From NCBI GenBank assembly GCA_964392945.1, contig CAYMSH010000027.1, positions 1-24,000 on the forward strand: DNA of 24,000 nt. The letters are read 5' to 3'. Both the position numbers and the translations under genes were made by a program. This document shows, piece by piece, positions 1 through 15,814 of this stretch. The stretch is from an uncultured Planctomycetaceae bacterium. GTDB taxonomy: Bacteria > Planctomycetota > Phycisphaerae > SM23-33. The first letter of the stretch is position 1. Every line of letters begins with the position of its first letter. A model generated the notes under the pieces. That model was not told the DNA's origin. It searched no databases and saw nothing but the letters and a program-made list of their open reading frames with translations.

Positions 1-57
1 GCTGAACTTCTCGCTCATTCTGTCCGAGACTGGCTTGTTTTGCTACATGGTATCTAA

Positions 58-97
58 CGGGGCGACAGAGTCGTGCGGCTGCGTTTCTGTCGCCCCG
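58..97. other. GC-rich stem-loop (12-bp stem, 16-nt loop) downstream of kptA
   Basis: CGGGGCGACAGA (58-69) is the exact reverse complement of TCTGTCGCCCCG (86-97). No clear U-tract follows on either strand. Confidence 0.5.
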
Positions 98-124
98 CTG
101 GGGCTCTTTAAAGAGAGTCAAATA

Positions 125-186
125 CCGGGCCCTCACGGACCCGGCTAAGGCCTGCCTGTCGGCAGGCCCTATCGGCCCTTCGGGCC
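125..186. other. Cluster of three short GC hairpins (possible terminator or REP-like structures 3' of kptA)
   Basis: CCGGG(125-129)/CCCGG(140-144). GGCCTGCC-TGTC-GGCAGGCC (149-168). GGCCC-TTC-GGGCC (174-186). The GGCCCT motif recurs. Confidence 0.4.
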
Positions 187-252
187 CAAGTAAGCCTCTG
201 TCGGCCCTGCGGACCTGAACAAACAGCTGGTTTAATCATCTCATGGGAGATG

Positions 253-807
253 TCAATCTTCAGGGAACTGAAGATACTCGGGGCCAACGCAGTCGGTAAG
301 CCACACTCCGTTAGTCGACAGGAAGAACTCCGCGCCGGCGGCCGCCAGGTCAGCGGCGCGGACCTTGAGTACAATCGGTCTACCGTATCGCCGTCCGACA
401 CTCTCGGCCGTCTCGGCGTCAGGCGACAGGTGTACGTGATGGCGCTGGCGTTTGACCAGGCCCTGGGCTTTGATCGCCTTGATATTCCCCGCGGCCGTCC
501 CGTGATAGAGAATCTCCGGCGGATCGGCGGCGCTGTAGCCTAAGTCCACGTTGATCGAGTGGCCCTGGCTGGCGCGGATCATTGCGCCGTCGGCGCTGAA
601 TTCGAACCGCTTCTTGTCGTTCGTAGCGACTACCTCTTGGAGCTGCTCGAAGCTCATGGCCCGCCCGACTTCTCGGCATCCGCGCAGCAAGACATCGACG
701 CGAACCCAACCGGAATGGTCAGGTTCAACGTCGATAGTCTCGGGCCGATGCCGGAGCACCAGCGAGAGGAACTTGCTGATGCGCGTTTTCTTTTTCTCGT
801 TCATCAT
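253..807 (-). CDS. kptA: RNA 2'-phosphotransferase (Tpt1/KptA family)
   Basis: 184-aa ORF that aligns by eye along its full length with E. coli KptA. Matching segments: SKFLSLVLRHRPE (Arg-His), DKKRFEF, IRASQGHS, LYHGT, RHHVHLS, NGVWLT. Same strand as rtcB and 34 nt downstream of it. Confidence 0.9.
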   Translation of the reverse strand: MMNEKKKTRISKFLSLVLRHRPETIDVEPDHSGWVRVDVLLRGCREVGRAMSFEQLQEVVATNDKKRFEFSADGAMIRASQGHSINVDLGYSAADPPEILYHGTAAGNIKAIKAQGLVKRQRHHVHLSPDAETAESVGRRYGRPIVLKVRAADLAAAGAEFFLSTNGVWLTDCVGPEYLQFPED

Positions 808-841
808 CTGATTCTCATCGCGCCTCGGCGCGGGGGCCGAA

Positions 842-2245
842 TCAATCTTCGGGGCGCTGGCCGCCGGGCGCCATCTTCACCAGCCGCGGATCGAATCTGC
901 CGATCGGATCGACAAGATCGCGCTGCGCCCGCATGACCTCTTCGATATCCTTGTACGCCATCGGCGCTTCGTCCAGGCCGGCGGAGATCAGCTCCACGCG
1001 ATTGGCCTTGAGGAACTTCTTCACGTCCGACCAGGTGAACATCTCCTTGGCCTTCTTGCGGCTCATTCGTCGCCCGGCTCCGTGGGACGCCGAGTTCAGC
1101 GATTCGGCGCAGCCCTTTCCGCGCACAACGTAACACGGGGTGGCCATCGAACCGGGAATAAGCCCCAGCACGCCTTTTTCGGCCGGCGTAGCGCCCTTGC
1201 GGTGCACGATGACCTCACGCCCGTCGTGGATCTCTTTCCACGCGAAGTTGTGATGGTTCTCGATATCCGCCAGGACCTTGGCCCCGATGTTCCGCACGAC
1301 GTAGCGGTGAATCAGTTCGTGGTTCGCCGCGGCGTATCGGCCCATCAGCTCCATGGCGGCCCAGTATTCCTTACCGGGTTCGCTGTCGAGATCGAACCAC
1401 GCCAGGTGCAGCAAGTCGCGAGGCAGTTCGGGGTGCAGCTCCATCGCAAGTTTGCTGTAGTGCTGTGCGATCATTCCGCCGACGCCGCGCGAGCCGCTGT
1501 GGCTCAGCAGAGTCAGGTACTGACCGGCGGGCAGTCCCAGTTCGTCGGCTTCAAGCGTAAGCACGCCGAATTCCGCGAAGTGGTTCCCGCTTCCGCTGGA
1601 GGCCAGCTGGCGCCAGGCCTTGTCCTTGTGCTTGAGCGTGATCGGCGAGACGGTCCAGTCTTCGTCCATCACATCGTGCTCGCGTCGATGCCGCGAGCGG
1701 AATCCGCCGCCGACTCCGAAACACGTCTCGCGATTCAGTGCGCCTTTCAGGCGATCGGTTTGTCCTTCGATCGCCGAGGCCGGCATGTCCAGCACGCTCA
1801 TTTTCATGCGGCATGCAATGTCCATTCCAACTGCGAACGGGATAACGGCGTTGTCAGTGGCCAGCACTCCGCCGATCGGCAAACCGTAGCCCATGTGCGC
1901 GTCCGGCATGAGCGCGCCGCATACGGCGACCGGCAGACGGCTGGCCGATTCGAGCTGCCCAATCGCGTTGTCGTCCAGATCGCGGCCCCACTGTCGCCAG
2001 GGCGCTGGCTCTGCGCGCGGCTCGAACGTCTTGCGCGCCGCTACTCTTTCGATAAGCGCCGAGGCCAGCTCGCCCCAGATCGCATCTTCGGTGTGATCTT
2101 CGGGACAGTCGACTAGATCGCCGATGATCTGGCGCATCTGCTGCTTGTGCACACCGGCCTTTGCGGCGCGAGCTACGGTCTTCTGGGCCAGTTTCATCAC
2201 CGGCCCCTTGGGGATTCCAAGATTGCTTAGTTCTCTTGCTTTCAT
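842..2245 (-). CDS. rtcB: RNA-splicing/repair ligase RtcB (3'-phosphate/5'-hydroxyl ligase)
   Basis: 467-aa ORF with RtcB hallmark segments GMDIACRM, SGSGNHFAEF, SHSGSRGVG, ENHHNFAW, SASHGAGR. Its ATG lies 2 nt after the rtcA stop. Confidence 0.95.
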   Translation of the reverse strand: MKARELSNLGIPKGPVMKLAQKTVARAAKAGVHKQQMRQIIGDLVDCPEDHTEDAIWGELASALIERVAARKTFEPRAEPAPWRQWGRDLDDNAIGQLESASRLPVAVCGALMPDAHMGYGLPIGGVLATDNAVIPFAVGMDIACRMKMSVLDMPASAIEGQTDRLKGALNRETCFGVGGGFRSRHRREHDVMDEDWTVSPITLKHKDKAWRQLASSGSGNHFAEFGVLTLEADELGLPAGQYLTLLSHSGSRGVGGMIAQHYSKLAMELHPELPRDLLHLAWFDLDSEPGKEYWAAMELMGRYAAANHELIHRYVVRNIGAKVLADIENHHNFAWKEIHDGREVIVHRKGATPAEKGVLGLIPGSMATPCYVVRGKGCAESLNSASHGAGRRMSRKKAKEMFTWSDVKKFLKANRVELISAGLDEAPMAYKDIEEVMRAQRDLVDPIGRFDPRLVKMAPGGQRPED

Positions 2246-2247
2246 AA

Positions 2248-3282
2248 TTATGCGTCCTTCTTCATATCCGGTTCGACCCGGACTTGGCAGGCCTTCGGCC
2301 CGATTTTCTCGGTAGTAATCTCAACGTCCAGAAACTGCTTGATCAGGTCAATGTTTGTTTTCGCGTGGCGAGTAAGCCCTGTAGTGACGAATCGCCCGCC
2401 GGCCAGAGCCATAGGCACGAGCAGTTGATCGGCCAGGTACGGACCGATCGGAACCTGTGCTGCTAGGTACTTCTGGGCCTGCTGGACCGCGTGGTTGGCG
2501 ACGGCTTTTGCAGGCACGTTGACCTGGCCGAAACCGGTGAACAGTTCAGTAACGTTCTCCGACTCGATCTCCAGCAGCACGACGTTGCCCGGCCCGGCCG
2601 AGTCCCTGCGAACATCAACGTGCAGTTCGTCATCCGACCAGCCGAGCTTTGACTGCACCTTCCGCAACTCCTTGCGTGCGATCTCTTCAGGCAGTCTTGC
2701 GATCATCGCCACGGCCCGCCTCGCTACGGTCCGGCCGCGTTCGATAATCTCCAGCCGTTTGAGTTTTGAGACCGGCTCGATCGTCACGAGGAACTCGCCT
2801 CCGCCGGCGGGGTAGAAACCCGGCCGGATGAGCGTAACGGAAATCTCGGGGCCCATGCGATTAAGAAGCGGAATCAGCGCCTTGGCGAGGAAATCCACCG
2901 GCGGAGCCCAGGGGTTGTGCGTTCCGCCTTGAAGAGTAATCTGCGACGGCTCGTCGGCGGTCATCAGCGCAGGCAGCACGGTCTGCAAGACCAGCGTCGC
3001 GCTGCCGGCGGTGCCCACGGCGAACCGGTAACACCCGCCGCGCACCTGGCCCGGCTCGAACGTAAGGGCCCCGGACCGCATCTCTGCGCCCTGGGCGTTT
3101 CCGCTGCATACTTCCAGCGCGGCTTTCACCGCGGTAAGGTGCTGGCGGAGCAGACCGGGCTTCTTCCGCCCGGCGCGTATGTTCTCTATTCGGAGCGGTT
3201 TTTCCGTCTCCATCGACAACGCGAGCGAAGACCGCAGGATCTGCCCGCCGCCTTCTCCATATGATCCGTCAATCGTCAACAT
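2248..3282 (-). CDS. rtcA: RNA 3'-terminal phosphate cyclase RtcA
   Basis: 344 aa from the ATG at 3282 (MLTIDGSYGEGGGQILRSSLALS...). AAAGGA Shine-Dalgarno about 9 nt upstream. Also GGTHNPWAPP, ADQLLVPMALAG and C-terminal LTRHAKTNIDLIKQFL (His in the position expected for the adenylylated residue). The ORF-track start at 3474 reads through a tRNA-like RNA and is rejected. Confidence 0.93.
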   Translation of the reverse strand: MLTIDGSYGEGGGQILRSSLALSMETEKPLRIENIRAGRKKPGLLRQHLTAVKAALEVCSGNAQGAEMRSGALTFEPGQVRGGCYRFAVGTAGSATLVLQTVLPALMTADEPSQITLQGGTHNPWAPPVDFLAKALIPLLNRMGPEISVTLIRPGFYPAGGGEFLVTIEPVSKLKRLEIIERGRTVARRAVAMIARLPEEIARKELRKVQSKLGWSDDELHVDVRRDSAGPGNVVLLEIESENVTELFTGFGQVNVPAKAVANHAVQQAQKYLAAQVPIGPYLADQLLVPMALAGGRFVTTGLTRHAKTNIDLIKQFLDVEITTEKIGPKACQVRVEPDMKKDA

Positions 3283-3313
3283 GAGTCTCAATCCTTTCGC
3301 CCGGTCTGGGCTC

Positions 3314-3340
3314 GGGGCCCGGGCCGATCGCCCGGGCCCC
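3314..3340 (-). other. Perfect 11-bp all-GC hairpin between the Y RNA array and the rtcA ribosome-binding site
   Basis: Minus strand: GGGGCCCGGGC GATCG GCCCGGGCCCC. No U-tract follows. The rtcA SD is about 17 nt downstream. Confidence 0.6.
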
Positions 3341-3371
3341 ATCGTACCGCCTGCTCGACATTTGTACATCC

Positions 3372-3399
3372 AATAAAAGACCCGCGGCGACAAGGGTCT
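3372..3399 (-). terminator. Candidate intrinsic terminator ending the Y RNA array
   Basis: Minus strand: AGACCC (3399-3394), loop TTGTCGCCGC, GGGTCT (3383-3378), then TTTATT (3377-3372). The stem is only 6 bp. Its loop contains the 3' basal strand of module Y-4, so the two folds may compete. Confidence 0.4.
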
Positions 3400-3507
3400 G
3401 GAGAAACATTTCCGGTGCTCTACCAATTGAGCTATTGCGAACATGCTCGCAAGCGGGACTCGAACCCGCAGCATCCGGCCAAATGTAGTTACTCCGGCAT
3501 TCGCCGC
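3384..3507 (-). ncRNA. Y RNA-like module Y-4 (permuted tRNA mimic, YrlA type)
   Basis: Minus strand 5'>3': GCGGCGA(3507-3501) ATGCC GGAG TAACT ACATTT GG CCGG ATGCT [GCGGG TTCGAGT CCCGC 3469-3453] [TTGCGA GCATGT TCGCAA] TA [GCTC AATTGGTA GAGC] A CCGG AAATGT TT CTCC AGACCCTTG TCGCCGC(3390-3384). The order is T arm, loop-closed acceptor helix, complete D arm. The enclosing stem takes the place of the anticodon stem. Ends are approximate. Confidence 0.75.
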
Positions 3508-3551
3508 CGGCCAAATGCCGACGCCCGGTTCTCACCGGACGCCGACGCCTA

Positions 3552-3697
3552 TGCGTTACGACAAGTTATGACGAAACGTTTTGCGCGCTCTACCGCTGAG
3601 CTACAGCCCCAATAGATTCGTTAAATGGAGCCGGCGGGATTCGAACCCGCGACCTCGGGTACCTTAACCTTGTAGTTCCGTCCGCATTCGTGACGCA
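3552..3697 (-). ncRNA. Y RNA-like module Y-3 (permuted tRNA mimic)
   Basis: Minus strand: TGCGTCACGA(3697-3688) ATGCGGA CGGAAC TACAAGGTTAAGGTACCCG AGGTC [GCGGG TTCGAAT CCCGC 3650-3634] [CGGCTCC, 16-nt loop, GGGGCTG; 7 bp including 2 G-U] TA [GCTC AGCGGTA GAGC] G CGCAAAAC GTTTCG TCATAACTTG TCGTAACGCA(3561-3552). The basal helix is 10 bp with one mismatch. CGGAAC/GTTTCG forms a second helix. Confidence 0.65.
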
Positions 3698-3708
3698 GTT
3701 TTTTCGCC

Positions 3709-3844
3709 CCGGTCGGCGACAAACGTTGGCCAGACAGTCTTACTGAGCTATCTCGACGCTAATCGAGAGCGAGATCTGAACTCGCGACCTCCCGCACGAG
3801 GCGGGCGCTCTAACCATGTAGTCTGGGCGGCATTCGCCGACCGG
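3709..3844 (-). ncRNA. Y RNA-like module Y-2 (tRNA mimic opened in the D-loop)
   Basis: Minus strand: CCGGTCGGCGA(3844-3834) ATGCCGC CCAGAC TAC ATGGTTA GAGC G [CCCGC CTCGT GCGGG] AGGTC [GCGAG TTCAGAT CTCGC 3785-3769] [TCTCGA TTAGCG TCGAGA] TA GCTC A GTA AGACT GTCTGG CCAACGTTTG TCGCCGACCGG(3719-3709). The basal helix is a perfect 11 bp. CCAGAC/GTCTGG and GAGC/GCTC also pair. Confidence 0.7.
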
Positions 3845-3864
3845 TATGCATTTAGTTTTCAAAA

Positions 3865-3950
3865 TGGCGACAAGTGGTGGCGTGAGATTCCGCTTTCGCG
3901 ACCGGGATTCGAACCCGGATTACCGATGTACTCACGCCGGCATTCGCCAA
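3865..3950 (-). ncRNA. Y RNA-like module Y-1 (minimal: T-arm mimic plus GNRA mini-helix)
   Basis: Minus strand: TTGGCGA(3950-3944) ATGCC GGCGTGAG(3938-3931) TACATCGGTAAT [CCGGG TTCGAAT CCCGG 3918-3902] T [CGC GAAA GCG 3900-3891] GAAT CTCACGCC(3886-3879) ACCACTTG TCGCCA(3870-3865). It has an 8-bp helix plus a 6-bp basal helix and no D arm. Confidence 0.65.
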
Positions 3951-4137
3951 TTGCATTCGTCTGGGACCGACATTCGCCGGTCAACGGCGATTGGGACCTT
4001 TCGACCGCAACCGCCGGTTAAGTAAGCCGCCCCCCCGCGCGGCCTACAGTTTGATGTTCTTTGATCAGATCGGGAGACCCGGATAGAATCGGCGCTTCAA
4101 TTCAGCTTGGTTTTTCGCCGTCTGGCCTGCTCTCGAC

Positions 4138-5715
4138 CTACAATTTTACATCTTCAATCTGACCGACCCAGTAGCCCGCCTGCGACCGACCCGCGGCCAC
4201 GTCTGCGATCAGGCCGAACACCTTGTCGCTGAAACCAGCAACGTTGATGATGTCATCACGCTCTGCAGCCTGGGTGGTGTCGTAAGGCTGGATGTCGATG
4301 CAGACCATCTTCGCCTGCGGATTACGCCGCTTGAACACGGCCCATTCCTTCATAGTCGCAGTGGCGCTTCCGCCGCATCGGCCGTAGTACGGCGAGTCAA
4401 CCCACGATTCGTTGTCCGAAACGTAGATCACCAGATCGCCCCGGGCCTTGCGAGCGTTCAAGTGTCGCAGCGGCGCGGCGCAGTTCGTTCCGCCCTGGGG
4501 CAGATTCGCCAGCTTCCGGGCGTTAGTCATCACCGAAGCTCGTGGTTTCAGGGCGACTTTCACGATCTTGGACTCGAACGGAACCACCTGAGTCAGGCGA
4601 TTGGTCCGCAGCATGGCCGCAGCCACGAGAGCCGCAACGTCGATGCATCGCACGACGGTGGTCGAACCCTTTCGGTATCCGGTTACCGGCGAGTGCATCG
4701 ACCCCGAAACGTCCGGGAGCACATAAACCTCGCCGTCAACCACAGGCACGTTCCGCAGCGAGATCTCCAGCGCGTCCTGCAGAGCCCCGCGGATCGCCGT
4801 CGGCAGATCGCTTGAGGCGCACATGTAGGCGGTCATCAACTGGTACGGCAGGACACGAGCCTTTGCGATAAGCTCCGGATCGGCCAGCCGCTCTGCGATC
4901 AGACGAACCATCTTCGGATCGTCCAGCACGCCGTGACGCAGGAAGGTGTTCAGGTTCATTCGAGTCATCTGCCACGAAGCGTTCTCGGCGATGCCCACCC
5001 AATGACGCTTGCCCAGCTCCAGACCGGTCAGCATCTGGAAGGGAACGTCCGGGGCGTCGATCGCAGCGCGATCGTCAGAGCACTTGAACCGATCGTAAGC
5101 ACGCACTACCTCGGGCAGCGCTTCTGCGTTGTGGTCCCGACCCAGCAGGTAACCGTACAGGCTTTCCCGCGAGGCGCTCCCCGGCTTGGGGTGAACCATC
5201 TTGATCACGTCGGCCAGCGACGGAGACGAACCAACCGAACCGGTGAATATTTGTCGATCGGTCCGGTTCGAAAGCCACTGCAGGATCAACCGCTTGGGCA
5301 ACGAGCCGAGGCTCTTTCGACCCACCACGCCGCTTCGCATGATCTGCACAAAGTTCCGCAGCATCTTCGGGTTGTCGATCACTCGATCGAAAACCTCGGC
5401 CAGCAATCCCGGACTGCGAACCGACAGAACGGCGCACAGCAGCGCGGGGGTGTCCTTCATGTACGCGCGCTTTCGGGCATACAACGCCATTCGAGCGACG
5501 AACTCCGGCTCGACTCTACCAGCCAGCTCCAGCACCTGGTCCAACTGCCCCTGGGCCGAAGCGTAGAACGTGGAGTTCAGGCAGCCAGTGGCGGCCAGTT
5601 GCGCCAGTGCGTGGCGATCGTCAAGCCTGTAGGCCTGTCCGCCAGCCTCGTTGACAGCGTTGGTCTTGGGCAACAGCTTGCCGACTATCGATTGAAATAA
5701 AGTCTTGTTAGCCAT
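4138..5715 (-). CDS. rsr: Ro 60 kDa autoantigen ortholog Rsr (TROVE domain + vWA domain)
   Basis: N-terminus typical of Ro/TROVE proteins (MANKTLFQS...NEAGGQAY...FYASAQGQL...YARKRAYMKDTPALL). C-terminal vWA domain with MIDAS motif DVSGSM. Start set at ATG 5715; the ORF track offers an alternative 8 codons upstream at 5739. Confidence 0.92.
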   Translation of the reverse strand: MANKTLFQSIVGKLLPKTNAVNEAGGQAYRLDDRHALAQLAATGCLNSTFYASAQGQLDQVLELAGRVEPEFVARMALYARKRAYMKDTPALLCAVLSVRSPGLLAEVFDRVIDNPKMLRNFVQIMRSGVVGRKSLGSLPKRLILQWLSNRTDRQIFTGSVGSSPSLADVIKMVHPKPGSASRESLYGYLLGRDHNAEALPEVVRAYDRFKCSDDRAAIDAPDVPFQMLTGLELGKRHWVGIAENASWQMTRMNLNTFLRHGVLDDPKMVRLIAERLADPELIAKARVLPYQLMTAYMCASSDLPTAIRGALQDALEISLRNVPVVDGEVYVLPDVSGSMHSPVTGYRKGSTTVVRCIDVAALVAAAMLRTNRLTQVVPFESKIVKVALKPRASVMTNARKLANLPQGGTNCAAPLRHLNARKARGDLVIYVSDNESWVDSPYYGRCGGSATATMKEWAVFKRRNPQAKMVCIDIQPYDTTQAAERDDIINVAGFSDKVFGLIADVAAGRSQAGYWVGQIEDVKL

Positions 5716-5788
5716 CTCGCACCATCCTTTCAAGGCCAAGTTCCAGCCCCTGCTGGAAATAACTCATTCATGCCTTGCCCTCCTATTA

Positions 5789-5805
5789 GCAGCAAGCGTG
5801 CCAAA
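5789..5805 (-). promoter_or_regulatory. sigma54 (-24/-12) promoter for rsr, the Y RNAs, rtcA, rtcB and kptA
   Basis: Minus strand: TTTGGCACGCTTGCTGC. TGGCACG matches the -24 element exactly. CTGC stands in for TTGC at -12, and the GG-to-GC spacing is canonical. It lies about 75 nt upstream of the rsr ATG and faces the divergent sigma54 activator gene rtcR. Confidence 0.6.
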
Positions 5806-5937
5806 CTTGCTGAATAAAAATGTAATAATCGTAAATCGTTGTCTATACGTCTTTTGCGCATGCCCTCGTCAATTACCGTCCACTGGCGACGACAAACAAT
5901 GTTTTATCTTATGGGATAAGTGCCTATCTTTATGGCT

Positions 5938-7545
5938 ATGCCTAAAGGAAACACAGTTGTATTTGGTCTGCTTGGAACCATGCTGGACTCCGGTCCGGCC
6001 CGGAATCGCTGGGACAAGTGGCGCCCAACGGTTTCGATCTTCCAGCACGAGGAGTTGCTCGTCGATCGCCTCGTGCTGCTTCACGACAAGAAGCGCGACG
6101 GTCTTGCGATCCAGGTCTGCGATGACATCTCCTCGATCTCTCCGGAGACCGAGGTCTGCAGGCACATTCTGGACTTCGACGACCCGTGGGATTTCGAGGA
6201 GGTCTACGGGGCGCTGCACGATTTTCTGCTGGGCTATGCGTTCGATCCGGAAGAGGAGGAGTACCTGCTGCACATCACGACAGGCACGCACGTGGCCCAG
6301 ATTTGCATGTTCCTGTTGACCGAGTCGAACTACTTTCCGGGCAAGCTGCTTCAGACCAATCCGTTCGGCAAGAACCGGCGCGGCCCGGGCGGGTACACGA
6401 TCATCGACCTGGACCTGTCGAGATACGATCGGATCGCCCAGCGATTTCAAGCCGAGCGTTGCGACGACCTGTCGTTCCTCAAGTCGGGCATCGAGACTCG
6501 CAACAAGCGGTTCAATCTCCTGATCGAACAGATCGAGCAAGTCGCGATCCGCAGCGACGCCCCGCTGCTGCTTACCGGCGCTACCGGAGCCGGCAAGTCG
6601 CGCCTGGCCCGCCGGGTCTACGAACTTAAGAAAGCTCGCAGACAGGTTTCGGGTGAGTTCGTCGAGGTCAACTGCGCGACGCTTCGCGGAGATGCGGCGA
6701 TGTCGGCGATGTTCGGACACGTAAAAGGCGCATTCACCGGCGCGTTGCGGGACCGCCCGGGTCTGCTGCGTGCGGCCGACGGAGGAACCCTGCTGCTGGA
6801 CGAAGTCGGCGAACTCGGACTTGACGAGCAGGCGATGCTGCTGCGGGCCGTCGAGGAGGGCCTCTTCCTGCCGGTAGGCACCGACAAGGAGACCGCCAGT
6901 TCATTCCAGCTTATCTGCGGGACAAACAAGGATCTCAAGCAGGCCGTCGCCGACGGCGCTTTCCGCGAGGACCTGCTGGCCAGGATCAATCTCTGGACAT
7001 TCCACCTGCCGGATCTGGCCCAGCGGCCTGAAGACATCGAACCGAATCTCGACTACGAACTGAGCCAGCTGGCCGAAACCACCGGCACGCGAATAACGTT
7101 CAACAAGGAGGCCCGGCGGAGTTTCCTGCGGTTCGCCACTTCCCCCGAAGGGCTGTGGCTGGGAAATTTCCGGGACCTGAACGGAGCCGTGGTGCGCATG
7201 GCGACGCTCGCGACGGCCGGCAGGGTCACAGTCGATATAGTCGCCGGCGAGATCCAGCGGCTCAAGGATTCCTGGCTTCGCAGCGCCGAGGCCTGCGATC
7301 GCGACGCCAGGCCGATCGAACTGCTGGGCTCGGAAACCGTGTCGAAGATGGATCGTTTCGATCGCGTTCAACTCTCGGACGTTCTGGAAGTGTGCGACAA
7401 GTGCAAGTCGCTCTCGGATGCGGGGCGCGCGCTGTTCGCCGAGTCACGCAAAGCAAAGCAGAACCCCAACGACGCCGATCGCCTGCGGAAGTACCTCGGA
7501 CGCTTCGGTTTGACATGGCGAAAGATCCGCGAATCGAGCGATTAA
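5938..7545 (+). CDS. rtcR: sigma54-dependent transcriptional activator RtcR (CARF-like sensor + AAA+ + HTH)
   Basis: N-terminus MPKGNTVVFGLLGT...RWDKWRPT resembles the RtcR CARF region. Walker A GATGAGKS (6577-6600), GAFTGA (6727-6744), C-terminal HTH-like segment. Start is uncertain: ATG 5938 preferred, ATG 5932 and GTG 5920 are alternatives. Confidence 0.92.
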   Translation: MPKGNTVVFGLLGTMLDSGPARNRWDKWRPTVSIFQHEELLVDRLVLLHDKKRDGLAIQVCDDISSISPETEVCRHILDFDDPWDFEEVYGALHDFLLGYAFDPEEEEYLLHITTGTHVAQICMFLLTESNYFPGKLLQTNPFGKNRRGPGGYTIIDLDLSRYDRIAQRFQAERCDDLSFLKSGIETRNKRFNLLIEQIEQVAIRSDAPLLLTGATGAGKSRLARRVYELKKARRQVSGEFVEVNCATLRGDAAMSAMFGHVKGAFTGALRDRPGLLRAADGGTLLLDEVGELGLDEQAMLLRAVEEGLFLPVGTDKETASSFQLICGTNKDLKQAVADGAFREDLLARINLWTFHLPDLAQRPEDIEPNLDYELSQLAETTGTRITFNKEARRSFLRFATSPEGLWLGNFRDLNGAVVRMATLATAGRVTVDIVAGEIQRLKDSWLRSAEACDRDARPIELLGSETVSKMDRFDRVQLSDVLEVCDKCKSLSDAGRALFAESRKAKQNPNDADRLRKYLGRFGLTWRKIRESSD

Positions 7546-7558: not shown

Positions 7559-8551
7559 TCATCGCCTTTCCGGCGCGAGCACTACTCGGAATCCGAGTAT
7601 AGCGTAGGATGAGATTTCCGGCGGGATGCTGTATCTCGCCGCCGATCGCAGGAACGGGTGGACCTGCTGGTCGAGGTCCTTCCTGTCGTGGCGTTTCTTG
7701 TCGCCTTTGTGCACGCCGGAGAAGCATCCGCCGCGAACGACTTTTTCGGTTCCCTTGTCCGGTCCGATCGGATCTTTGCTCGCCGACTTGTCGTACGGAC
7801 CGTACCAGTCGAGGCACCATTCGTAGACGTTGCCGTGCATGTCATACAGACCCCAGGCGTTGGGCTTGAGCTCACCGACTTTTCGCGTTCCGAACGATGT
7901 GAAGCTGAACGTCGCGACGTGCGCGAACTTCCTGATCGAGTTCAGATCGCCGGGATCGCACTCGACGTTGTACGGCGTTTTCACGCCCGCCCGGCAGGCG
8001 TATTCCCACTGGGCCTCTGTCGGCAGGCGGTAGACGTAGCCCTTGGGCAGCCGGCCGGCCTTGCGTTCGATTTCGGTCAGCTTGCTGCAGAATTCATTTG
8101 CACGGGCCCAGGTGACGCACTCCATCGGGTTCAGGTCGGTTCGATCTCCGCCCGTGGCGCCGGCTCCGTTTATCAGTCCGCCGCCTCTGGGATATCGCCA
8201 GCAGAACGCCATGCCGTCGTGGATCGGACCGCGTTTGAACCGCCAGGCTTCGTAATCGTAATCCGGCGGGACCATCAGCTTGTAGAACTCGCGCTGGGTC
8301 ACTTCGCAGGCGCCCATGTAAAACGGCTTGGAGATCGTGACTTTGTGCGCCGCTTCGTCGCTGCGTCGGCACAGTTCGCCGGCCGGGCTGCCCATCGTAA
8401 ACGAACCGGCCGGGATGAGCTTCATCTTCATCTCGATGCTCGGTACGGTGTAATCCTTGTCGCTCAGCAGCTTGGGTCGATCGCCGTCCTTGCCGACAGA
8501 TATCCCGCACAGCAGCGAAAGCAAAACTATATTGATGATCCTTGTCTTCAT
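7559..8551 (-). CDS. Secreted FGE-sulfatase/SUMF1-fold protein, paralog F1 (not a true formylglycine-generating enzyme)
   Basis: N-terminal signal peptide (MKTRIINIVLLSLLCGISVG). Family segments MKLIPAGSFTMGS, EVTQREF, RLPTEAQWEYACRAG, NAWGLYDMHGNVYEWCLDWY, RGGCF, LRSAAR, LGFRVV. Starts 10 nt after the stop of gene A1. Confidence 0.85.
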   Translation of the reverse strand: MKTRIINIVLLSLLCGISVGKDGDRPKLLSDKDYTVPSIEMKMKLIPAGSFTMGSPAGELCRRSDEAAHKVTISKPFYMGACEVTQREFYKLMVPPDYDYEAWRFKRGPIHDGMAFCWRYPRGGGLINGAGATGGDRTDLNPMECVTWARANEFCSKLTEIERKAGRLPKGYVYRLPTEAQWEYACRAGVKTPYNVECDPGDLNSIRKFAHVATFSFTSFGTRKVGELKPNAWGLYDMHGNVYEWCLDWYGPYDKSASKDPIGPDKGTEKVVRGGCFSGVHKGDKKRHDRKDLDQQVHPFLRSAARYSIPPEISSYAILGFRVVLAPERR

Positions 8552-8561
8552 GATCCTGCCT

Positions 8562-11500
8562 TTATTTAACTGGTGCGGGCCTCTTCGTAACGATCGGTCC
8601 GCGTGCTCGTTTGATCCACTTCTGCATCAGCGGCAGGTCCTTGATCTCGCCGGAGACTTCCTGCCTCATCCGCCAGTCCCAGTCGATAGTAGTGCTCCAG
8701 CCGCCGCCGGAGGCCTCTGATTTCTGCAGCCGCTCGGCCAGAGGGATATCCTCGCGCTGCGTGGCGCCGCCGAGCTGGATCTTTACGTGCTCGCTGATGT
8801 AGCGGCTGTAGTTGGTGTTGTAGTAACCGCGATAGACCTGGTAGGCGAAGCTGTCCATCCAGAGCTTCTCCGGCGAGTAGCGCAGCATCGCCTTTTTGTG
8901 CGTCTTGGACAGTTCTGTCTTCGCCGCGGCTACCTGCAGGACCATCGCGGCGGTCCCCTTGGCCATGTAGGCGTCGCGCTTGCCGCGAAGCATGCGATCT
9001 TTCTCGCCGGCGAGTTTGTCCAGGCGCCGCTGCTCGGCGATCTGCTCGGGATTAGCCTTGTTGAGCTCGTCGGACAAAGCCCGCTCGCGTTTACGGTATT
9101 TGTCGTGAATCTCTCGCGGGAGCTTTGACAGCGCAGCGTACTCGGCGTCGCCGTTGCGGTAGTCGCTGAAACGCTTGTTCAACGCCCGATCGCGATCCGA
9201 GGCGGCCTTGCGGGCAGTTTCATCCTTGAGCTTCCGCTGTGCATTGATCGCCTTGCGTTCGACGATCACGTCGGGACGTTTTTCGAATTCCTCCCGGAGT
9301 TTCCTGTCCCGCGCGCGGCGTTTTTCTTCGGCGTCTTTGCGCTGTGCGTTCAGCGCCGTCAGCTCCTTGTCGGTCTTGATGCGTTCTCTCAGAAGCGTAT
9401 GGATCTTCGAACGAATCTCTGACGACTGCTTTCGCAACGCGTCAATTTCGGCCCTGGCCTCCAGCGAGTCCGGCTGTTTGTCGAACTTGGTTGCGAGATC
9501 CTTTTTGCTGTCGGCCATCTTCTTTTCGACCGCCTTTAATTTCGCCTCGGCCGCGGCCAGTTGGGGCCAGCGTTTTTCAAGTTCCCTGGCCCGGGCTCCC
9601 TGCTCGGTTTGGTATTTGCCGTAAGGTTCGTTTAGTTTGCGGCTCATCTCGGACATCTTGCGGTTAAGCTCGCTGCTGTCGCCGCGAGCGGCGGCCAGGG
9701 CTTTGACCACTTCCAGCGTGGGTCGCCTCGGCGCATCGCGAGTCGGAGCCGGAACCTTGCTGAAATCTTCGTGAACGGTGTGGTGGATCACAACGCTGTC
9801 GATCACGCCCTTGAAACGGCCCGACCCGTCGCGCGAGGTCGCAATGAAGTTGCGATTGTCTCCGCCGTCGGCGAACAGATCTCGCGGGCGGAATGTCGAA
9901 GCCTTCTCGGCGATCTTCTTCCCGTTCAGCCAGAGCGCGGTCTTAGTTCCGTCGATCTCGACGCGAACAGTCGCCCACTTGCCTTTGGCCAGCGGTTTGG
10001 CGCCGTCGAGCGAGACAATCGTCTTGCCGCCGACTTGCGCCCTCAGCGTCAGAGCGGTTGTCAGAACCAGGCGACTGTCGGCGCTCGAGCCGAAATCGAG
10101 AATCGTCTGCGAGCCGGCGCCTTCGGGTTTGACGGAGACTTGAACGGTCATCGCCTTGAGATCCGCCCCGCGCGGGGCCAGTTCACCGTACTGCGTTTGG
10201 CCGTCGAAACGAAGACCGCGTCGCTGGCCGTCGATTACGAATTCGGGGCGAGCATACAGGTAGCCGTCGAGGTTCAGACCCAGCCGCTTTCCGTATCGCC
10301 TGTCGGCTCCGCTGGGGAATCGGTACCAATCCTCCAGCAGCGTGTTCTCGCCGCGGTCCATCGCGTAGTTGGCCCAGAGGGAGTATTTGTGCAGCGTTTC
10401 CTCGCCGAGGCGTTTGATCGGATCGGCGATGCGCGGGGCCAGCGCCGCGGGGGCGGCGCCTATCAGCTTGATCGACCAGGGGTAGCGAGGAGCGTGGCGG
10501 CCGCTGTAGAGATTCCTGGCCAACTGCCTGTCGGTGAACAGCGCCGTCGGCGTCGCGGCGACGCTCAACCAATAGCCCTTGTCGCCGTGGCGAGTTTTCA
10601 GCTTCATCAGGCCCTTGTTCCACATCGGGCTGTAGCGTCGCACGCCGTCGGCTCCAACGGCGATTATGCACGCGCGCCAGTCGCTGTAGAGATCCGGATC
10701 GTGCCGACCGGTGAAATCGACAGCGATCTCGGCGGCGCCTTTGGCAGCGGTCAGGCTCACGATGTTAACGCCGAACGGCTCGGGCGCCTGTTCCATCGGA
10801 ATACGGTAAGCGCCGGCCTTGCCGTTGACCGGTTCGAGCTGACTCTGGGCCGGGCTCCGGTATCGGCCGGCGAACAGGTTCTCAAGCTCGCAGTCGAATG
10901 TCGCCAGGCGGGCTCCGTATTGGCCGAACATGTCGCCAAGTCCGCGGATACCGTTTTCAAACAGACCGCGCTGCTGTCCGACACGGGCCATGCTCTGCAG
11001 CATGCAGAACTCATCGACTCCGTGCGGCAGGCAGGTGAAATAAGCGTATCCCCAGTTCGGATCGTCACAGGTGATGTTGTAGAACATCGTGTATCCGTAT
11101 CCGAGGTCGCCGTTAAACACGTGCCTCCAGGGCGTCTTGATGTGGTGGTTGCCCTTGAGCATGCTCGGGTCGGCCATGCATTGGTGCATGTCGGCCTGGG
11201 CCTCGCCGCCGCCGATCCGTATGCTGTTGGGCAGGCTTCCGTGACCCCATTCGTGCCACAGGGCCGGAGCCCAGGGCCCGCCGCCGGCGCCTTTAAGAAT
11301 ACAGGCCCCGTATCCGCCGCCGGCGTAACCGCCGATAAACTGGTGCCCGTCGCGCTTCGTGCCGGCTACGGTGATCGCATGCTTGAACTTCTCTTTGCGG
11401 TCCCAGTACTCCATCAGGTTGCCGGCGTATTCGTTCAGGTCCCACCAGTACTCGGCGCACTTGATCGAGCCGTCTCGGTACCACTGGGCCTTGTCGGGCG

Positions 11501-11927
11501 CCTTGTCGTTGACCCACGGGTCGCCCTCGCTGCCGGCCTGGCTGCCGGATACCCATATGAAATGCGGCGACTCGACCTGCATGGTCCCGGGCTTGCCGGG
11601 CTTGGCGTTGTTGGGCCATCTTACGTCCAGGGACGGCGACTTGACGTAAACGGTCTTGTCGAGCCCGGCTCGGATGCGGGCCATCTCTTTGACGTACAGG
11701 TCCATGATGAACTTCTTGTCGGCGCCGTCGAAGCTGCCGCGAACGAAGCATCGCTTCCGCCCGTCGGCCAGCCGCAGCACAACGCCCGGGGCCCACGGAC
11801 CGCCATCGCCGTTGAACTTGCTGCTCATGGTGTTGCCCATGCCGCGGAAGCCGATCAAGTGCGCCTTGAACGGCTTGTCGCCAACGGACACATGCGATCG
11901 TTTCGGCGTCCAGGTGCGAAGGATCAT
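8562..11927 (-). CDS. Large HExxH / LamG-like / coiled-coil protein, paralog A1 (uninterrupted part; see the in-frame TAG upstream)
   Basis: 1121-aa ORF. HEWGH at 11241-11255 followed by a conserved GGGE (possible third zinc ligand). LamG/ConA-like segment about 9762-10250 (FDGQTQY...LDFGSS...WATVRVEIDG...LWLNG). K/E/R/A-rich predicted coiled coil about 8898-9695. Trp-rich tail (WSTTIDWDWRMRQEVSGEIKDLPLMQKWIKRARG). Paralogous to 15815-19783. Confidence 0.8.
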   Translation of the reverse strand: MILRTWTPKRSHVSVGDKPFKAHLIGFRGMGNTMSSKFNGDGGPWAPGVVLRLADGRKRCFVRGSFDGADKKFIMDLYVKEMARIRAGLDKTVYVKSPSLDVRWPNNAKPGKPGTMQVESPHFIWVSGSQAGSEGDPWVNDKAPDKAQWYRDGSIKCAEYWWDLNEYAGNLMEYWDRKEKFKHAITVAGTKRDGHQFIGGYAGGGYGACILKGAGGGPWAPALWHEWGHGSLPNSIRIGGGEAQADMHQCMADPSMLKGNHHIKTPWRHVFNGDLGYGYTMFYNITCDDPNWGYAYFTCLPHGVDEFCMLQSMARVGQQRGLFENGIRGLGDMFGQYGARLATFDCELENLFAGRYRSPAQSQLEPVNGKAGAYRIPMEQAPEPFGVNIVSLTAAKGAAEIAVDFTGRHDPDLYSDWRACIIAVGADGVRRYSPMWNKGLMKLKTRHGDKGYWLSVAATPTALFTDRQLARNLYSGRHAPRYPWSIKLIGAAPAALAPRIADPIKRLGEETLHKYSLWANYAMDRGENTLLEDWYRFPSGADRRYGKRLGLNLDGYLYARPEFVIDGQRRGLRFDGQTQYGELAPRGADLKAMTVQVSVKPEGAGSQTILDFGSSADSRLVLTTALTLRAQVGGKTIVSLDGAKPLAKGKWATVRVEIDGTKTALWLNGKKIAEKASTFRPRDLFADGGDNRNFIATSRDGSGRFKGVIDSVVIHHTVHEDFSKVPAPTRDAPRRPTLEVVKALAAARGDSSELNRKMSEMSRKLNEPYGKYQTEQGARARELEKRWPQLAAAEAKLKAVEKKMADSKKDLATKFDKQPDSLEARAEIDALRKQSSEIRSKIHTLLRERIKTDKELTALNAQRKDAEEKRRARDRKLREEFEKRPDVIVERKAINAQRKLKDETARKAASDRDRALNKRFSDYRNGDAEYAALSKLPREIHDKYRKRERALSDELNKANPEQIAEQRRLDKLAGEKDRMLRGKRDAYMAKGTAAMVLQVAAAKTELSKTHKKAMLRYSPEKLWMDSFAYQVYRGYYNTNYSRYISEHVKIQLGGATQREDIPLAERLQKSEASGGGWSTTIDWDWRMRQEVSGEIKDLPLMQKWIKRARGPIVTKRPAPVK

Positions 11928-11990
11928 CCCGGGCTTAACATCGATAACATCGACACCCTTCCGCGGCCACCAGTCAACGAGTCGCGCCTA

Positions 11991-12158
11991 GTAAGCCTTC
12001 GGCTCGCCATTAACCCACAGAGTGACATTGCACCCAACCCACCCCGGTTTGAGCTTGGCGCCAGGATACCGCGTAGCGGAATAAAAATCATATTCCCCAG
12101 CCGCACCGGCACAAATAAACCCCACACACACAATCGTAACTATAAGTTTGATTCTCAT
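11991..12158 (-). pseudogene. Detached N-terminal fragment of A1 (signal peptide plus conserved N-terminal region), same frame as 8562-11927
   Basis: MRIKLIVTIVCVGFICAGAAGEYDFYSATRYPGAKLKPG...GEPKAY, then TAG (11988-11990), then in frame ARLVDWWPRKGVDVIDVKPGMILRTWT. It aligns with the A2 N-terminus (GGYDFFAPARYPGAG...GYQRRVVNWWPRKGVDIIEVKDGMPLRTWT). Confidence 0.7.
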
Positions 12159-12187
12159 AATATCCCTACATCCGTCCGCAGTATCCG

Positions 12188-12315
12188 CCACCAGCCACCA
12201 GCCGTTAGCCGTTAGCCGTTGCCGTTATCCGTATTATCCGCCGTTACATGCCGTTTGTTGTTTGCCGTCGCCGTTGCCGTAACCAAATCCGTGCCATCCG
12301 TGTCATCCGTGGTGG
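12188..12315 (-). repeat. Degenerate short tandem repeats / GGA-rich tract in the B1-A1 intergenic leader
   Basis: Plus strand: CCACCAG x2, GTTAGCC-like heptamers, then three 9-nt-phased (A/C)ATCCGTG units (12286-12311). On the coding (minus) strand these read CACGGAUG, CACGGAUG, CACGGAUU. There are nine GGA triplets in 12159-12335, one of them in the A1 Shine-Dalgarno. Confidence 0.7.
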
Positions 12316-12335
12316 AAAAAAGTCGTTGCCGTTGT

Positions 12336-15674: not shown

Positions 15675-15693
15675 GGCAAATCTCCGTAAAAGA

Positions 15694-15741
15694 CACTGAA
15701 ACAACAGAATACCATTCTACACGTAACGCGGTGTTTCAGTG
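15694..15741. promoter_or_regulatory. 10-bp perfect inverted repeat with a nested palindrome in the divergent B1/A2 intergenic region
   Basis: CACTGAAACA (15694-15703) and TGTTTCAGTG (15732-15741). A nested AGAAT-ACC-ATTCT lies at 15706-15718. The element is 20 nt upstream of the B1 ATG and about 75 nt upstream of the A2 ATG. Confidence 0.45.
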
Positions 15742-15814
15742 AGAATTTCTCTTTTCTGGAATATTCGTAGGCCTTTGTCGTATAACTTCCTAGTCCCTAC
15801 ACAGGAGTCTTTTA

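What the first reader, a model, noticed from the sequence alone, without database searches (positions are those of the whole stretch)
253..7545. RNA-repair supra-operon that adds kptA (Tpt1) to rsr-Y RNA-rtcA-rtcB under RtcR control
All five elements are co-directional and tightly spaced: rtcA to rtcB 2 nt, rtcB to kptA 34 nt. They lie behind a single sigma54 promoter that faces rtcR.
Established knowledge:
- RtcR is a CARF-domain sigma54 activator of rtcBA.
- RtcB seals 3'-P or 2',3'-cyclic-P ends to 5'-OH ends.
- RtcA cyclises 3'-P ends, and also 2'-P ends.
- Rsr/Y RNA scaffolds exoribonucleases.
Bacterial Tpt1/KptA is largely an orphan enzyme. Its known substrate, the 2'-PO4 splice junction, is made by a ligase type that bacteria are not known to have. 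Physical linkage to rtcBA-rsr suggests KptA acts on 2'-phosphorylated or 5'-phosphorylated ends produced during the same RNA-damage response. The rtcA-before-rtcB order also differs from the enterobacterial operon.
Basis: partly seen in the sequence, partly recalled or inferred. Interest (0 to 1): 0.7.

Follow-up and report, generated by a model that had tools for sequence, protein, structure and literature searches.

The report
RNA-repair operon that captured kptA
A marine planctomycete-like bacterium has a known stress-induced RNA-repair operon (Ro protein, Y RNAs, RNA cyclase, RNA ligase) that has gained the orphan enzyme KptA/Tpt1 as its last gene, apparently by deletion of an NAD-recycling gene block; this offers a natural system for testing what bacterial Tpt1 does.

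Summary
On the minus strand lie rsr, four tandem YrlA-type Y RNAs (not one), rtcA, rtcB and kptA. They sit behind a conserved sigma54 -24/-12 box that faces a divergent rtcR. The spacers are 2 nt (rtcA-rtcB) and 34 nt (rtcB-kptA). There is no terminator before kptA and a cluster of strong hairpins after it.

KptA is a full Tpt1: it scores above the NCBIfam equivalog cut-off and keeps the Arg-His-Arg-Arg tetrad. The same layout recurs in a sister lineage (KptA 87.5% identical, dN/dS 0.18).

The linkage is young and narrow. In a related lineage about 9.6 kb lie between rtcB and kptA. This block encodes NAD salvage and ADP-ribose processing genes (pncB-nadE-nrtR-pncA-ARH...) and has its own promoter-like site and NrtR operators. 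Another relative keeps only an ARH fragment after rtcB, and two have no kptA.

Across 80 species-level kptA loci, 28 carry NAD/ADPr neighbours, 6 have rtcB within 10 kb, and none has rsr or rtcR.

kptA therefore looks like a gene moved by deletion from predicted NrtR control to predicted RtcR control. Its role in RNA repair is plausible but unproven. I rate this a new variant of a known operon, of moderate interest.

The parts
5938..7545 (+). rtcR. It encodes a sigma54-dependent activator with the RtcR (CARF-like) N-domain, an AAA+ domain and the GAFTGA motif. The mechanical ORF starts at GTG 5920; gene callers on identical contigs give 535-537 aa.
   Evidence: (PF06956 267 bits; NF038308 781 bits against cut-off 650).
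5788..5803 (-). Sigma54 -24/-12 promoter element TGGCACGCTTGCTGCT, 73 nt upstream of the rsr ATG, facing away from rtcR.
   Evidence: 2 matches in the window, 0.69 expected; the block GTTTGGCACG-TTGCTGCT-ATAGGAGGGCAAGGCATGAATGAGT is conserved in L181, whereas the intergenic sequence upstream of it is largely diverged.
4138..5715 (-). rsr, a Ro60 orthologue (TROVE plus vWA), 525 aa, with an AAAGGA Shine-Dalgarno sequence before the ATG at 5715.
   Evidence: D. radiodurans Rsr 2NVO, E 7e-15 over residues 18-498.
3861..3950 (-). Y RNA module 1. It is a short YrlA-like RNA with the Ro-binding helix GGCGAAUGCC...CUUGUCGCC and a T-arm, but no D-arm.
   Evidence: 44.4 bits, E 1.9e-8.
3710..3840 (-). 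Y RNA module 2, YrlA-like and the weakest match of the four.
   Evidence: 28.2 bits, E 9.5e-4. It shares motifs with the other modules and is collinear and conserved in L181.
3552..3694 (-). Y RNA module 3, YrlA-like with a tRNA-like T-arm and D-arm.
   Evidence: 59.3 bits, E 9e-13.
3381..3507 (-). Y RNA module 4, a YrlA match above the Rfam gathering score.
   Evidence: 72.2 bits against 69. A compensatory T-arm change is seen in L181.
2248..3282 (-). rtcA, RNA 3'-terminal phosphate cyclase, 344 aa. The HxxTN nucleophile motif is kept (TRHAKTN).
   Evidence: (NF003246 440 bits against 352). E. coli RtcA 1QMH, E 1e-96.
842..2245 (-). rtcB, RNA ligase, 467 aa. It is the long form with an N-terminal extension of about 90 aa. 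The start codon lies 2 nt after the rtcA stop.
   Evidence: (PF01139 288 bits); the MPDAHMGYG, GSGNHF and SHGAGR motifs align to TTHA1785/PH1602.
808..841 (-). The 34-nt rtcB-kptA spacer. It has no terminator-like or promoter-like site and is conserved in the sister lineage L177.
   Evidence: z -1.1.
253..807 (-). kptA (Tpt1), RNA 2'-phosphotransferase, 184 aa, with catalytic tetrad R19-H20-R67-R122.
   Evidence: (NF002014 246 bits against 239). Runella Tpt1 7KW8, E 5.5e-52; dN/dS 0.18.
58..171 (-). Cluster of GC-rich hairpins 80-200 nt after the kptA stop, the likely 3' end of the transcription unit. One hairpin, CCGGGUCCGUGAGGGCCCGG, is followed by UAUUUGACUCUCUUU.
   Evidence: z -4.7 and -4.9; 0 of 200 shuffles fold as well. 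Three metagenome contigs end 252-316 nt after kptA, and the window itself starts 252 nt after it.

Best explanation
The region is one RtcR/sigma54-dependent RNA-damage operon, rsr - four YrlA-type Y RNAs - rtcA - rtcB - kptA, with rtcR divergent.

kptA was not recruited on its own. In the ancestor of this planctomycete clade, rtcA-rtcB was followed by a module carrying NrtR-type operators: pncB-nadE-nrtR-NDT-pncA-DUF4291-ARH-YdjM-...-kptA-ARH. This module encodes NAD salvage and ADP-ribose processing. A deletion of about 9.6 kb removed everything between rtcB and kptA. It left kptA 34 nt behind rtcB, without the promoter-like site and NrtR operators that precede the module, so kptA is now transcribed by read-through from the sigma54 promoter.

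Inferred mode of action. RNA fragments ending in 2',3'-cyclic phosphate activate RtcR. Rsr and the Y RNAs handle damaged or misfolded RNA. RtcA re-cyclises 3'-P and 2'-P ends, and RtcB seals them. KptA uses NAD+ to remove RNA 2'-phosphates that RtcB cannot join and that block further processing.

Shown here: the anatomy, conservation in a sister lineage, purifying selection, and the deletion history. Inferred: co-transcription, induction by RtcR, and the RNA substrate.
For: Anatomy.

Promoter: a sigma54 box is present and conserved.

Transcription unit: no terminator or promoter consensus lies between rtcB and kptA, the spacer is unstructured, and strong hairpins follow kptA.

Sister lineage: a 197-kb contig, plus L177/L178, shows the same rtcR<->rsr-gap-rtcA-rtcB-37 nt-kptA layout. 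RtcB is 92% and KptA 87.5% identical to the window's proteins.

Selection: kptA dN/dS is 0.18 against 0.14 for rtcB. dS is similar for the two genes (0.38 and 0.32), so they were inherited together.

Deletion history:
- L179/L180 carry rtcA-rtcB-[TTGACA..TAATAA promoter-like site plus palindrome TAGTGTAATAAGTACACTA]-pncB...kptA-ARH.
- The palindrome fits the NrtR core GT-N7-AC (PMC2330246) and recurs upstream of pncB or nrtR in at least 10 loci, representing about six distinct clusters. It is absent from the window.
- L174 is syntenic on the upstream side and keeps an ARH fragment directly after rtcB.
- In the RtcB tree L179 branches basal to (window, L177, L174).

Independent rtcB-kptA links elsewhere:
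- Tannerella: RtcB-phosphoesterase-PrfH-...-KptA, all co-directional.
- Mucilaginibacter: rtcB <-> WYL regulator-kptA.

Enzyme: the KptA catalytic tetrad is intact.
Against: - There are no expression data. Planctomycete promoters are poorly defined, so an internal promoter in the 3' end of rtcB cannot be excluded.
- The linkage is narrow. None of 80 diverse kptA loci has rsr or rtcR, and none of 80 RtcB loci at 55-68% identity has kptA. Two close relatives end the operon at rtcB.
- KptA's dominant conserved neighbours are NAD/ADP-ribose genes (28 of 80), so its primary role may be metabolic.
- RtcB junctions carry no 2'-PO4.
- The closest characterised homologue, Runella Tpt1, is ineffective on terminal 2'-PO4 and 3'-PO4 ends (PMC6573784).
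- The direction of the event (deletion here, or insertion in L179) rests on one NJ tree and one ARH remnant.
Confidence: 0.6

Rival explanations
1. The adjacency is a relic with no shared pathway. [quoted passage not shown] It merely survived next to rtcB after the NAD module was deleted, and any co-transcription with rtcBA is incidental.
For: - 28 of 80 species-level kptA loci sit among NrtR, ARH, NADAR, DUF4291, PARG, Macro or PncA genes.
- All five non-identical close relatives examined first have this context.
- NrtR-type operators precede these clusters.
- Archaeal Tpt1 enzymes dephosphorylate NADP(H), and an ancestral metabolic role has been proposed (PMC10622864).
Against: - After the rearrangement kptA was kept intact under purifying selection in two lineages, while the salvage and ADP-ribose genes next to it were lost.
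- rtcB lies within 10 kb in 6 of 80 kptA loci. At least three of these are in RNA-repair-like contexts (a PrfH string and a WYL regulator). By a rough estimate not computed here, chance would give about 0.3 of 80.
Confidence: 0.25
2. KptA acts in the damage response not as a phosphate remover but as an NAD+-dependent 5'-phosphate ADP-ribosyl capping enzyme. It would mark or protect broken RNA ends until repair or decay.
For: Tpt1 enzymes, including bacterial ones, ADP-ribosylate 5'-phosphate ends in vitro. ARH, Macro and PARG hydrolases reverse the modification (PMC11833690). Genes for such hydrolases flank kptA in relatives.
Against: - Ribotoxin breaks and RtcB substrates have 5'-OH ends, not 5'-phosphate ends.
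- The window lineage lost the ARH genes adjacent to kptA.
- The physiological relevance of this capping is unknown (PMC11833690).
Confidence: 0.08
3. kptA is transcribed independently from an unrecognised promoter inside or just after rtcB, so it is a neighbour rather than a member of the RtcR regulon.
For: Only sigma70 and sigma54 consensus scans were possible, and planctomycete promoter rules are poorly known. In L179 the kptA-containing module does have its own promoter-like site.
Against: - The spacer is 34 nt and has no promoter-like hexamers.
- The spacer is conserved, with a short gap, in the sister lineage.
- The NrtR operator and TTGACA/TAATAA element seen in L179 are absent from the window.
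Confidence: 0.15

Closest known systems
Salmonella Typhimurium rtcR <-> rsr-yrlB-yrlA-rtcB-rtcA operon (RtcR/sigma54; PMC3854526, PMC7790460, PMC4201824)
   Same: - A divergent rtcR with the RtcR N-domain.
- A sigma54 promoter.
- rsr as the first gene.
- Y RNAs in the rsr-rtc gap.
- rtcA and rtcB adjacent.
   Different: - Four Y RNA modules instead of two.
- The order is rtcA then rtcB. This order is known from Pelobacter (PMC3854526).
- rtcB is the long 467-aa form, not the E. coli-type (NF007153 162 bits against cut-off 407).
- kptA is the terminal gene, where Salmonella has a dinJ-yafQ cassette downstream.
Runella slithyformis Tpt1 in its HD-Pnk/ligase repair cluster (PMC6097658)
   Same: It is the closest solved homologue of the window's KptA (7KW8, E 5.5e-52), with the same catalytic tetrad. 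It is also a bacterial Tpt1 clustered with RNA-repair genes.
   Different: The partner genes differ: HD-Pnk and an ATP-dependent ligase there, RtcA, RtcB, Rsr and RtcR here. No damage-sensing regulator is described there.
NrtR regulons for NAD salvage (PMC2330246), and the ARG-centred ADP-ribose-processing systems with Nudix-HTH regulators described in planctomycetes and other phyla (PMC9503650)
   Same: In relatives (L004, L008, L009, L010, L012, L179) kptA lies in clusters with nrtR, pncA, pncB, nadE, ARH, NADAR, PARG, Macro and Nudix genes. These clusters are preceded by palindromes of GT-N7-AC type.
   Different: The window has none of these genes or operators. The ARG-centred systems were defined by the absence of a coupled ADP-ribosyltransferase, whereas these clusters contain KptA.
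RtcB-PrfH ribosome/RNA rescue modules
   Same: In the Tannerella MAG locus L088, KptA is co-directional with RtcB and a PrfH-like RF-1 domain protein. This is a second and independent RtcB-KptA string.
   Different: There is no rsr, Y RNA, rtcA or rtcR. Other genes (a phosphoesterase and an FtsH-like AAA/M41 protein) lie between rtcB and kptA.

Membership tests
Tpt1/KptA RNA 2'-phosphotransferase | Sequence match to the family model above the curated threshold | tested here: met
   PF01885 164 bits (cut-off 26); NCBIfam equivalog NF002014 246 bits (cut-off 239).
Tpt1/KptA RNA 2'-phosphotransferase | Catalytic Arg-His-Arg-Arg tetrad (Runella R16-H17-R64-R119) | tested here: met
   R19, H20, R67 and R122 are invariant in a 29-sequence alignment and align to the Runella Tpt1 residues.
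Tpt1/KptA RNA 2'-phosphotransferase | NAD+-dependent removal of an RNA 2'-phosphate | not testable with these tools
   Needs a biochemical assay or yeast tpt1-delta complementation.
RtcR-regulated rtcBA RNA-repair operon | Divergent rtcR encoding the RtcR N-domain plus a sigma54-interaction AAA+ domain with GAFTGA | tested here: met
   PF06956 267 bits, PF00158 160 bits, NF038308 781 bits against 650. GAFTGA is present in the translation.
RtcR-regulated rtcBA RNA-repair operon | Sigma54 -24/-12 promoter upstream of the first operon gene | tested here: met
   TGGCACGCTTGCTGCT at 5803-5788 (-). It is conserved in L181.
RtcR-regulated rtcBA RNA-repair operon | rtcA and rtcB adjacent and co-oriented, with active-site motifs | tested here: met
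   2-nt spacer. The RtcA HxxTN motif and the RtcB metal and GMP-His motifs align to solved structures.
RtcR-regulated rtcBA RNA-repair operon | RtcR-dependent induction of all genes, kptA included | not testable with these tools
   No transcript data are available for this uncultured organism.
E. coli-type RtcB (NCBIfam NF007153) | Score above the equivalog cut-off | tested here: not met
   162.6 bits against 407. The protein is the long form with an N-terminal extension, closer to TTHA1785/PH1602. It is an RtcB-family member by Pfam only.
Rsr/Ro60 with YrlA-type Y RNAs | Ro60 orthologue with TROVE and vWA domains | tested here: met
   PF25045 61 bits and PF05731 30 bits, both above cut-off. 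2NVO matches over residues 18-498. The NCBIfam Rsr equivalog is far below its cut-off (66 against 900), so this is a divergent orthologue.
Rsr/Ro60 with YrlA-type Y RNAs | YrlA covariance-model match within 4 kb of rsr | tested here: met
   Module 4 scores 72.2 bits against a gathering score of 69. Modules 1-3 fall below the gathering score (44, 28 and 59 bits) but share the Ro-binding helix and T-arm, and are collinear and 88% identical in L181.
NrtR regulon | An nrtR gene or an NrtR operator (palindrome with GT-N7-AC core) near kptA | tested here: not met
   The window has no match to TAGTGTA-N5-TACACTA at up to 2 mismatches and no nrtR homologue. Both are present in relatives.

The most novel reading that the evidence does not exclude
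This lineage may be the first natural case of a bacterial Tpt1 wired to an RNA-damage sensor (RtcR). More generally, RtcB-based RNA repair and the KptA/NAD-salvage/ADP-ribose-hydrolase module may form one functional unit. In that unit KptA would clear RNA 2'-phosphates that RtcB and RtcA handle poorly, and the salvage genes would recycle the nicotinamide and ADP-ribose>p it produces. The L179 super-cluster (rtcA-rtcB-pncB-nadE-nrtR-...-kptA-ARH), the Tannerella RtcB-PrfH...KptA string and the Mucilaginibacter rtcB<->WYL-kptA pair would then be variants of a single, undescribed NAD-dependent branch of bacterial RNA repair.
Probability: 0.3. Interest if true: 0.75.

Novelty: new variant of a known kind. 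Interest (0 to 1): 0.55.

Why it matters
What Tpt1/KptA does in bacteria is a long-standing open question. The Shuman laboratory states that no evidence exists that Tpt1 expression responds to physiological cues (PMC10622864).

This locus and its relatives predict two regulatory settings for one orthologous gene. One is derepression by ADP-ribose through NrtR. The other, in this locus, is induction by RNA damage through RtcR and sigma54. This gives concrete conditions and partner enzymes (RtcA, RtcB, Rsr/Y RNA) for testing substrates.

The locus also shows how a deletion can move a gene from one regulon to another.

If the RNA-repair link is real, it adds an NAD-consuming step to the Rtc pathway. 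If it is not, the data still point to NAD/ADP-ribose metabolism as KptA's main context.

Tried and rejected
- Literature. Full-text searches for KptA/Tpt1 together with RtcB, operon or gene neighbourhood found no description of kptA in an RtcR operon. The most relevant survey, Burroughs and Aravind 2016 (PMC5062991), is not held, so prior description cannot be excluded.
- Metagenome scan with RtcB. It returned only relatives at 68% identity or less, most of them stand-alone rtcB, and none with kptA. It was uninformative about the close clade. That clade had to be reached through protein clusters and exact look-ups.
- Viral contigs. Only 1 of 80 KptA loci has an RtcB nearby, so there is no phage link.
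- L019 (Verrucomicrobiaceae). RtcB-RtcA lie 5 kb upstream of nrtR-...-kptA, but four opposite-strand genes separate them. I did not count this as an operon.
- L179. No Y RNA was detected in the 184 nt left upstream of rtcA, so it remains unknown whether that lineage has rsr and rtcR.
- rtcB-kptA spacer. A small CGCGC...GCGCG hairpin was considered as a terminator and rejected: its z-score is -1.1 and no U-tract follows.
- rtcA start. The 408-aa ORF was rejected in favour of the ATG at 3282, because the family match begins at residue 65 and the extension overlaps Y RNA module 4.

Full report
**What is in the window**

Positions 253-7545 carry, on the minus strand, five kinds of element. They are rsr (4138-5715), four tandem YrlA-like RNAs (3950-3381), rtcA (2248-3282), rtcB (842-2245) and kptA (253-807). 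rtcR lies divergent on the plus strand at about 5938-7545.

Family assignments are strong:
- RtcR: NF038308, 781 bits against a cut-off of 650.
- RtcA: NF003246, 440 bits against 352. E. coli RtcA 1QMH matches at E 1e-96, and the HxxTN nucleophile motif is present.
- RtcB: PF01139, 288 bits. Metal-binding and GMP-His motifs align to TTHA1785/PH1602.
- KptA: NF002014, 246 bits against 239.
- Rsr: a divergent Ro60 with TROVE and vWA domains.

The mechanical rtcA ORF of 408 aa over-extends into a Y RNA. The real start is the ATG at 3282.

**Promoter and ends of the unit**

A sigma54-type element, TGGCACGCTTGCTGCT, lies at 5803-5788 (-), 73 nt upstream of rsr. It is one of only two such matches in 24 kb, where 0.69 are expected by chance. 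In a relative (L181, RtcB 83% identical) the box and the sequence following it are conserved inside an otherwise diverged intergenic region.

No sigma70-like promoter or terminator-like site lies between rsr and the end of kptA on the operon strand. The rtcB-kptA spacer folds no better than shuffled sequence (z -1.1). The 200 nt after kptA contain several very stable hairpins (z -4.7 and -4.9), one of them followed by a U-rich stretch. By anatomy, kptA is the last gene of the unit.

**Y RNAs**

Instead of one Y RNA there are four modules, scoring 44, 28, 59 and 72 bits against Rfam YrlA (gathering score 69). All four share the Ro-binding helix (GGCGAAUGCC...CUUGUCGCC) and a T-arm. Modules 2-4 also carry a D-arm-like element.

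L181 has the same four modules in the same order. The array is 88% identical there and shows compensatory changes in a T-arm. Multiple Y RNAs per rsr locus are known (PMC4201824), so this is an extension of known biology rather than a new kind of feature.

**Is KptA a functional Tpt1?**

The Arg-His-Arg-Arg tetrad (R19, H20, R67, R122) is invariant in 29 homologues and aligns to the Runella Tpt1 catalytic residues. Runella Tpt1 (7KW8, E 5.5e-52) is the closest solved structure.

**Is the linkage conserved?**

Three metagenome contigs carrying the identical KptA (their Rsr differs from the window's at about 1% of positions) show the same locus. All three end 252-316 nt after kptA.

A distinct sister lineage has the same layout and the same upstream synteny: DUF6055 - FGE-sulfatase - rtcR<->rsr - 858-nt gap - rtcA - rtcB - 37 nt - kptA. 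Its RtcB is 92% and its KptA 87.5% identical to the window's proteins. Between the two lineages kptA has dN/dS 0.18 and rtcB 0.14, with similar dS values of 0.38 and 0.32. kptA has therefore been inherited together with rtcB and kept under purifying selection.

Other relatives differ:
- **L179/L180 (RtcB 83.5% identical).** rtcA-rtcB is followed by a 128-nt spacer and then pncB-nadE-nrtR-NDT-pncA-DUF4291-unknown-ARH-YdjM-unknown-kptA-ARH, all co-directional. The spacer carries a TTGACA...TAATAA promoter-like site and the perfect palindrome TAGTGTAATAAGTACACTA.
- **The palindrome.** It fits the NrtR core GT-N7-AC (PMC2330246). It recurs upstream of pncB or nrtR in L004/5, L008, L009, L010, L012, L039, L040 and L179/180, and is absent from the window.
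- **L174 (about 82-89% RtcB identity, depending on the region compared).** It shares the upstream DUF6055 and FGE-sulfatase genes but has lost rtcR to rtcA. Its rtcB is 5'-truncated and is followed directly by a fragment of the same ARH gene.
- **Two further relatives.** Their operon ends at rtcB. One has an unknown 218-aa protein next; the other has a tRNA gene and an integrase-like ORF.

In an RtcB neighbour-joining tree, L179 branches basal to (window, L177, L174). The simplest history is an ancestral rtcA-rtcB-[NAD/ADPr module]-kptA arrangement. A deletion of about 9.6 kb then joined kptA to rtcB in the window lineage, and other deletions occurred elsewhere.

**Wider survey**

Among 80 species-representative genomes holding the nearest KptA relatives found (48-60% identity; Bacteroidota, Planctomycetota, Verrucomicrobiota, Acidobacteriota and others):
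- 28 have NrtR, ARH, NADAR, DUF4291, PARG, Macro or PncA/B genes within 10 kb.
- 6 have an RtcB within 10 kb.
- 1 has an RtcA.
- None has Rsr or RtcR.

Five close metagenomic relatives examined individually all show the NAD/ADPr context. Conversely, none of 80 RtcB loci at 55-68% identity has kptA. Only 1 of 80 viral KptA loci has an RtcB nearby.

Of the six RtcB-proximal cases, three look meaningful:
- A Tannerella MAG has a tight co-directional string: RtcB - calcineurin-like phosphoesterase - PrfH-like RF-1 protein - unknown - FtsH-like AAA/M41 - KptA.
- Two Mucilaginibacter genomes have rtcB divergent from a WYL/WCX regulator gene that is followed 25 nt later by kptA.

By a rough estimate not computed here, six of 80 is well above what one rtcB per multi-megabase genome would give by chance. 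These events are nevertheless few.

**Interpretation**

The operon reading is well supported by anatomy and by a second lineage. The strong version, a conserved supra-operon that reveals KptA's pathway, is not supported.

KptA's most conserved partnership is with NAD salvage and ADP-ribose processing under predicted NrtR control. [quoted passage not shown] It also fits the proposal of an NADP(H)-related or signalling role (PMC10622864).

The window shows a lineage in which that gene lost its own control region and fell under the RtcR/sigma54 operon, and has since been maintained. I take this, together with the Bacteroidota cases, as moderate evidence that KptA is useful in an RtcB-type RNA-damage response. 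The likely function is removal of RNA 2'-phosphates that RtcB cannot join and that RtcA cyclises only very slowly (PMC3854526).

Against this specific chemistry, RtcB junctions carry no 2'-phosphate. The closest characterised enzyme, Runella Tpt1, is poor on terminal 2'/3'-phosphates (PMC6573784). The substrate therefore remains open.

**Novelty**

The rtcR-rsr-Y RNA-rtcBA operon, the reversed rtcA-rtcB order, and multiple Y RNAs per locus are all known (PMC3854526, PMC4201824, PMC7790460). I found no paper describing kptA inside an RtcR operon, or an rtcAB-NAD salvage-kptA super-cluster. The key comparative survey of RNA-repair systems could not be read.

I classify this as a new variant of a known kind. 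Its value is practical: it predicts regulated expression of a bacterial Tpt1, which the field says has not been seen (PMC10622864), and it names the conditions and partner enzymes to test.

Noticed in passing
window 3381-3950 (-); L181 4831-5396: The rsr-rtcA gap holds four tandem YrlA-like modules, not one. The array is collinear and 88% identical in a relative whose RtcB is only 83% identical at the protein level. A compensatory change is seen in a T-arm (GCGGG/CCCGC to GCCGG/CCGGC). Module 3 also gives weak tmRNA-like hits through its T-arm and acceptor-like end.
   Followed up: partly
L004, L005, L008, L009, L010, L012, L039, L040, L179, L180: kptA sits at or near the end of clusters containing pncB, nadE, nrtR, pncA, ARH (2-3 copies), NADAR, PARG, Macro, Nudix, PnuC and a NadR-like kinase. 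The palindrome TAGTGTA-N5-TACACTA (NrtR core GT-N7-AC) lies upstream of pncB and nrtR. About a third (28 of 80) of diverse kptA loci share parts of this context.
   Followed up: partly
L088 10550-11433; L004 6519-7721 and 9577-10011; many loci L019-L087: Several proteins with no clear Pfam match recur next to kptA across phyla. They include a 159-aa protein (11 loci), a 134-aa protein (15 loci), a 144-aa protein, and a 400-aa protein with a faint Band_7 match. DUF4291 and YdjM recur as well. These are candidate unknown components of the KptA/ADP-ribose module.
   Followed up: no
L052 and L081 6984-10555; L090 8939-10540: In Mucilaginibacter a WYL/WCX-domain regulator gene is followed about 25 nt later by kptA. 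In two of three genomes the pair is divergent from rtcB. This may be a second type of sensor-regulated kptA.
   Followed up: partly
L088 3640-12292: A Tannerella MAG has a co-directional string: unknown - RtcB - calcineurin-like phosphoesterase - PrfH-like RF-1 protein - unknown - FtsH-like AAA/M41 - KptA - two unknowns - TatD.
   Followed up: partly
window 1-252; L001 10556-10871; L002; L003: Three metagenome contigs end 252-316 nt after kptA, and the window itself begins 252 nt after it. The breaks fall just past a cluster of GGGCC-rich hairpins. This suggests a repeat or a strain-variable junction downstream. In the sister lineage a 2013-aa protein gene follows after 443 nt.
   Followed up: partly
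L174 9683-11764: This is a decayed version of the locus in a syntenic relative. rtcR to rtcA are missing, rtcB is 5'-truncated and sits on a long branch, and a 143-aa ARH fragment follows.
   Followed up: partly
L181 7990-8326: In this relative the operon ends at rtcB. A hairpin follows, then an opposite-strand tRNA gene (identified by reading the sequence, not by a tRNA scan) and the start of an integrase-like ORF. The region downstream of rtcB appears to be a rearrangement hot spot.
   Followed up: no
window 7559-23957: The operon is embedded among repeated cassettes of giant DUF6055/Laminin_G_3 proteins, each paired with an FGE-sulfatase-like gene (8562-11927 with 7559-8551; 15815-19783 with 19788-20786). 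Two proteins of about 1100 aa with an HZS_alpha domain are also present. This gene content is typical of Planctomycetota.
   Followed up: no
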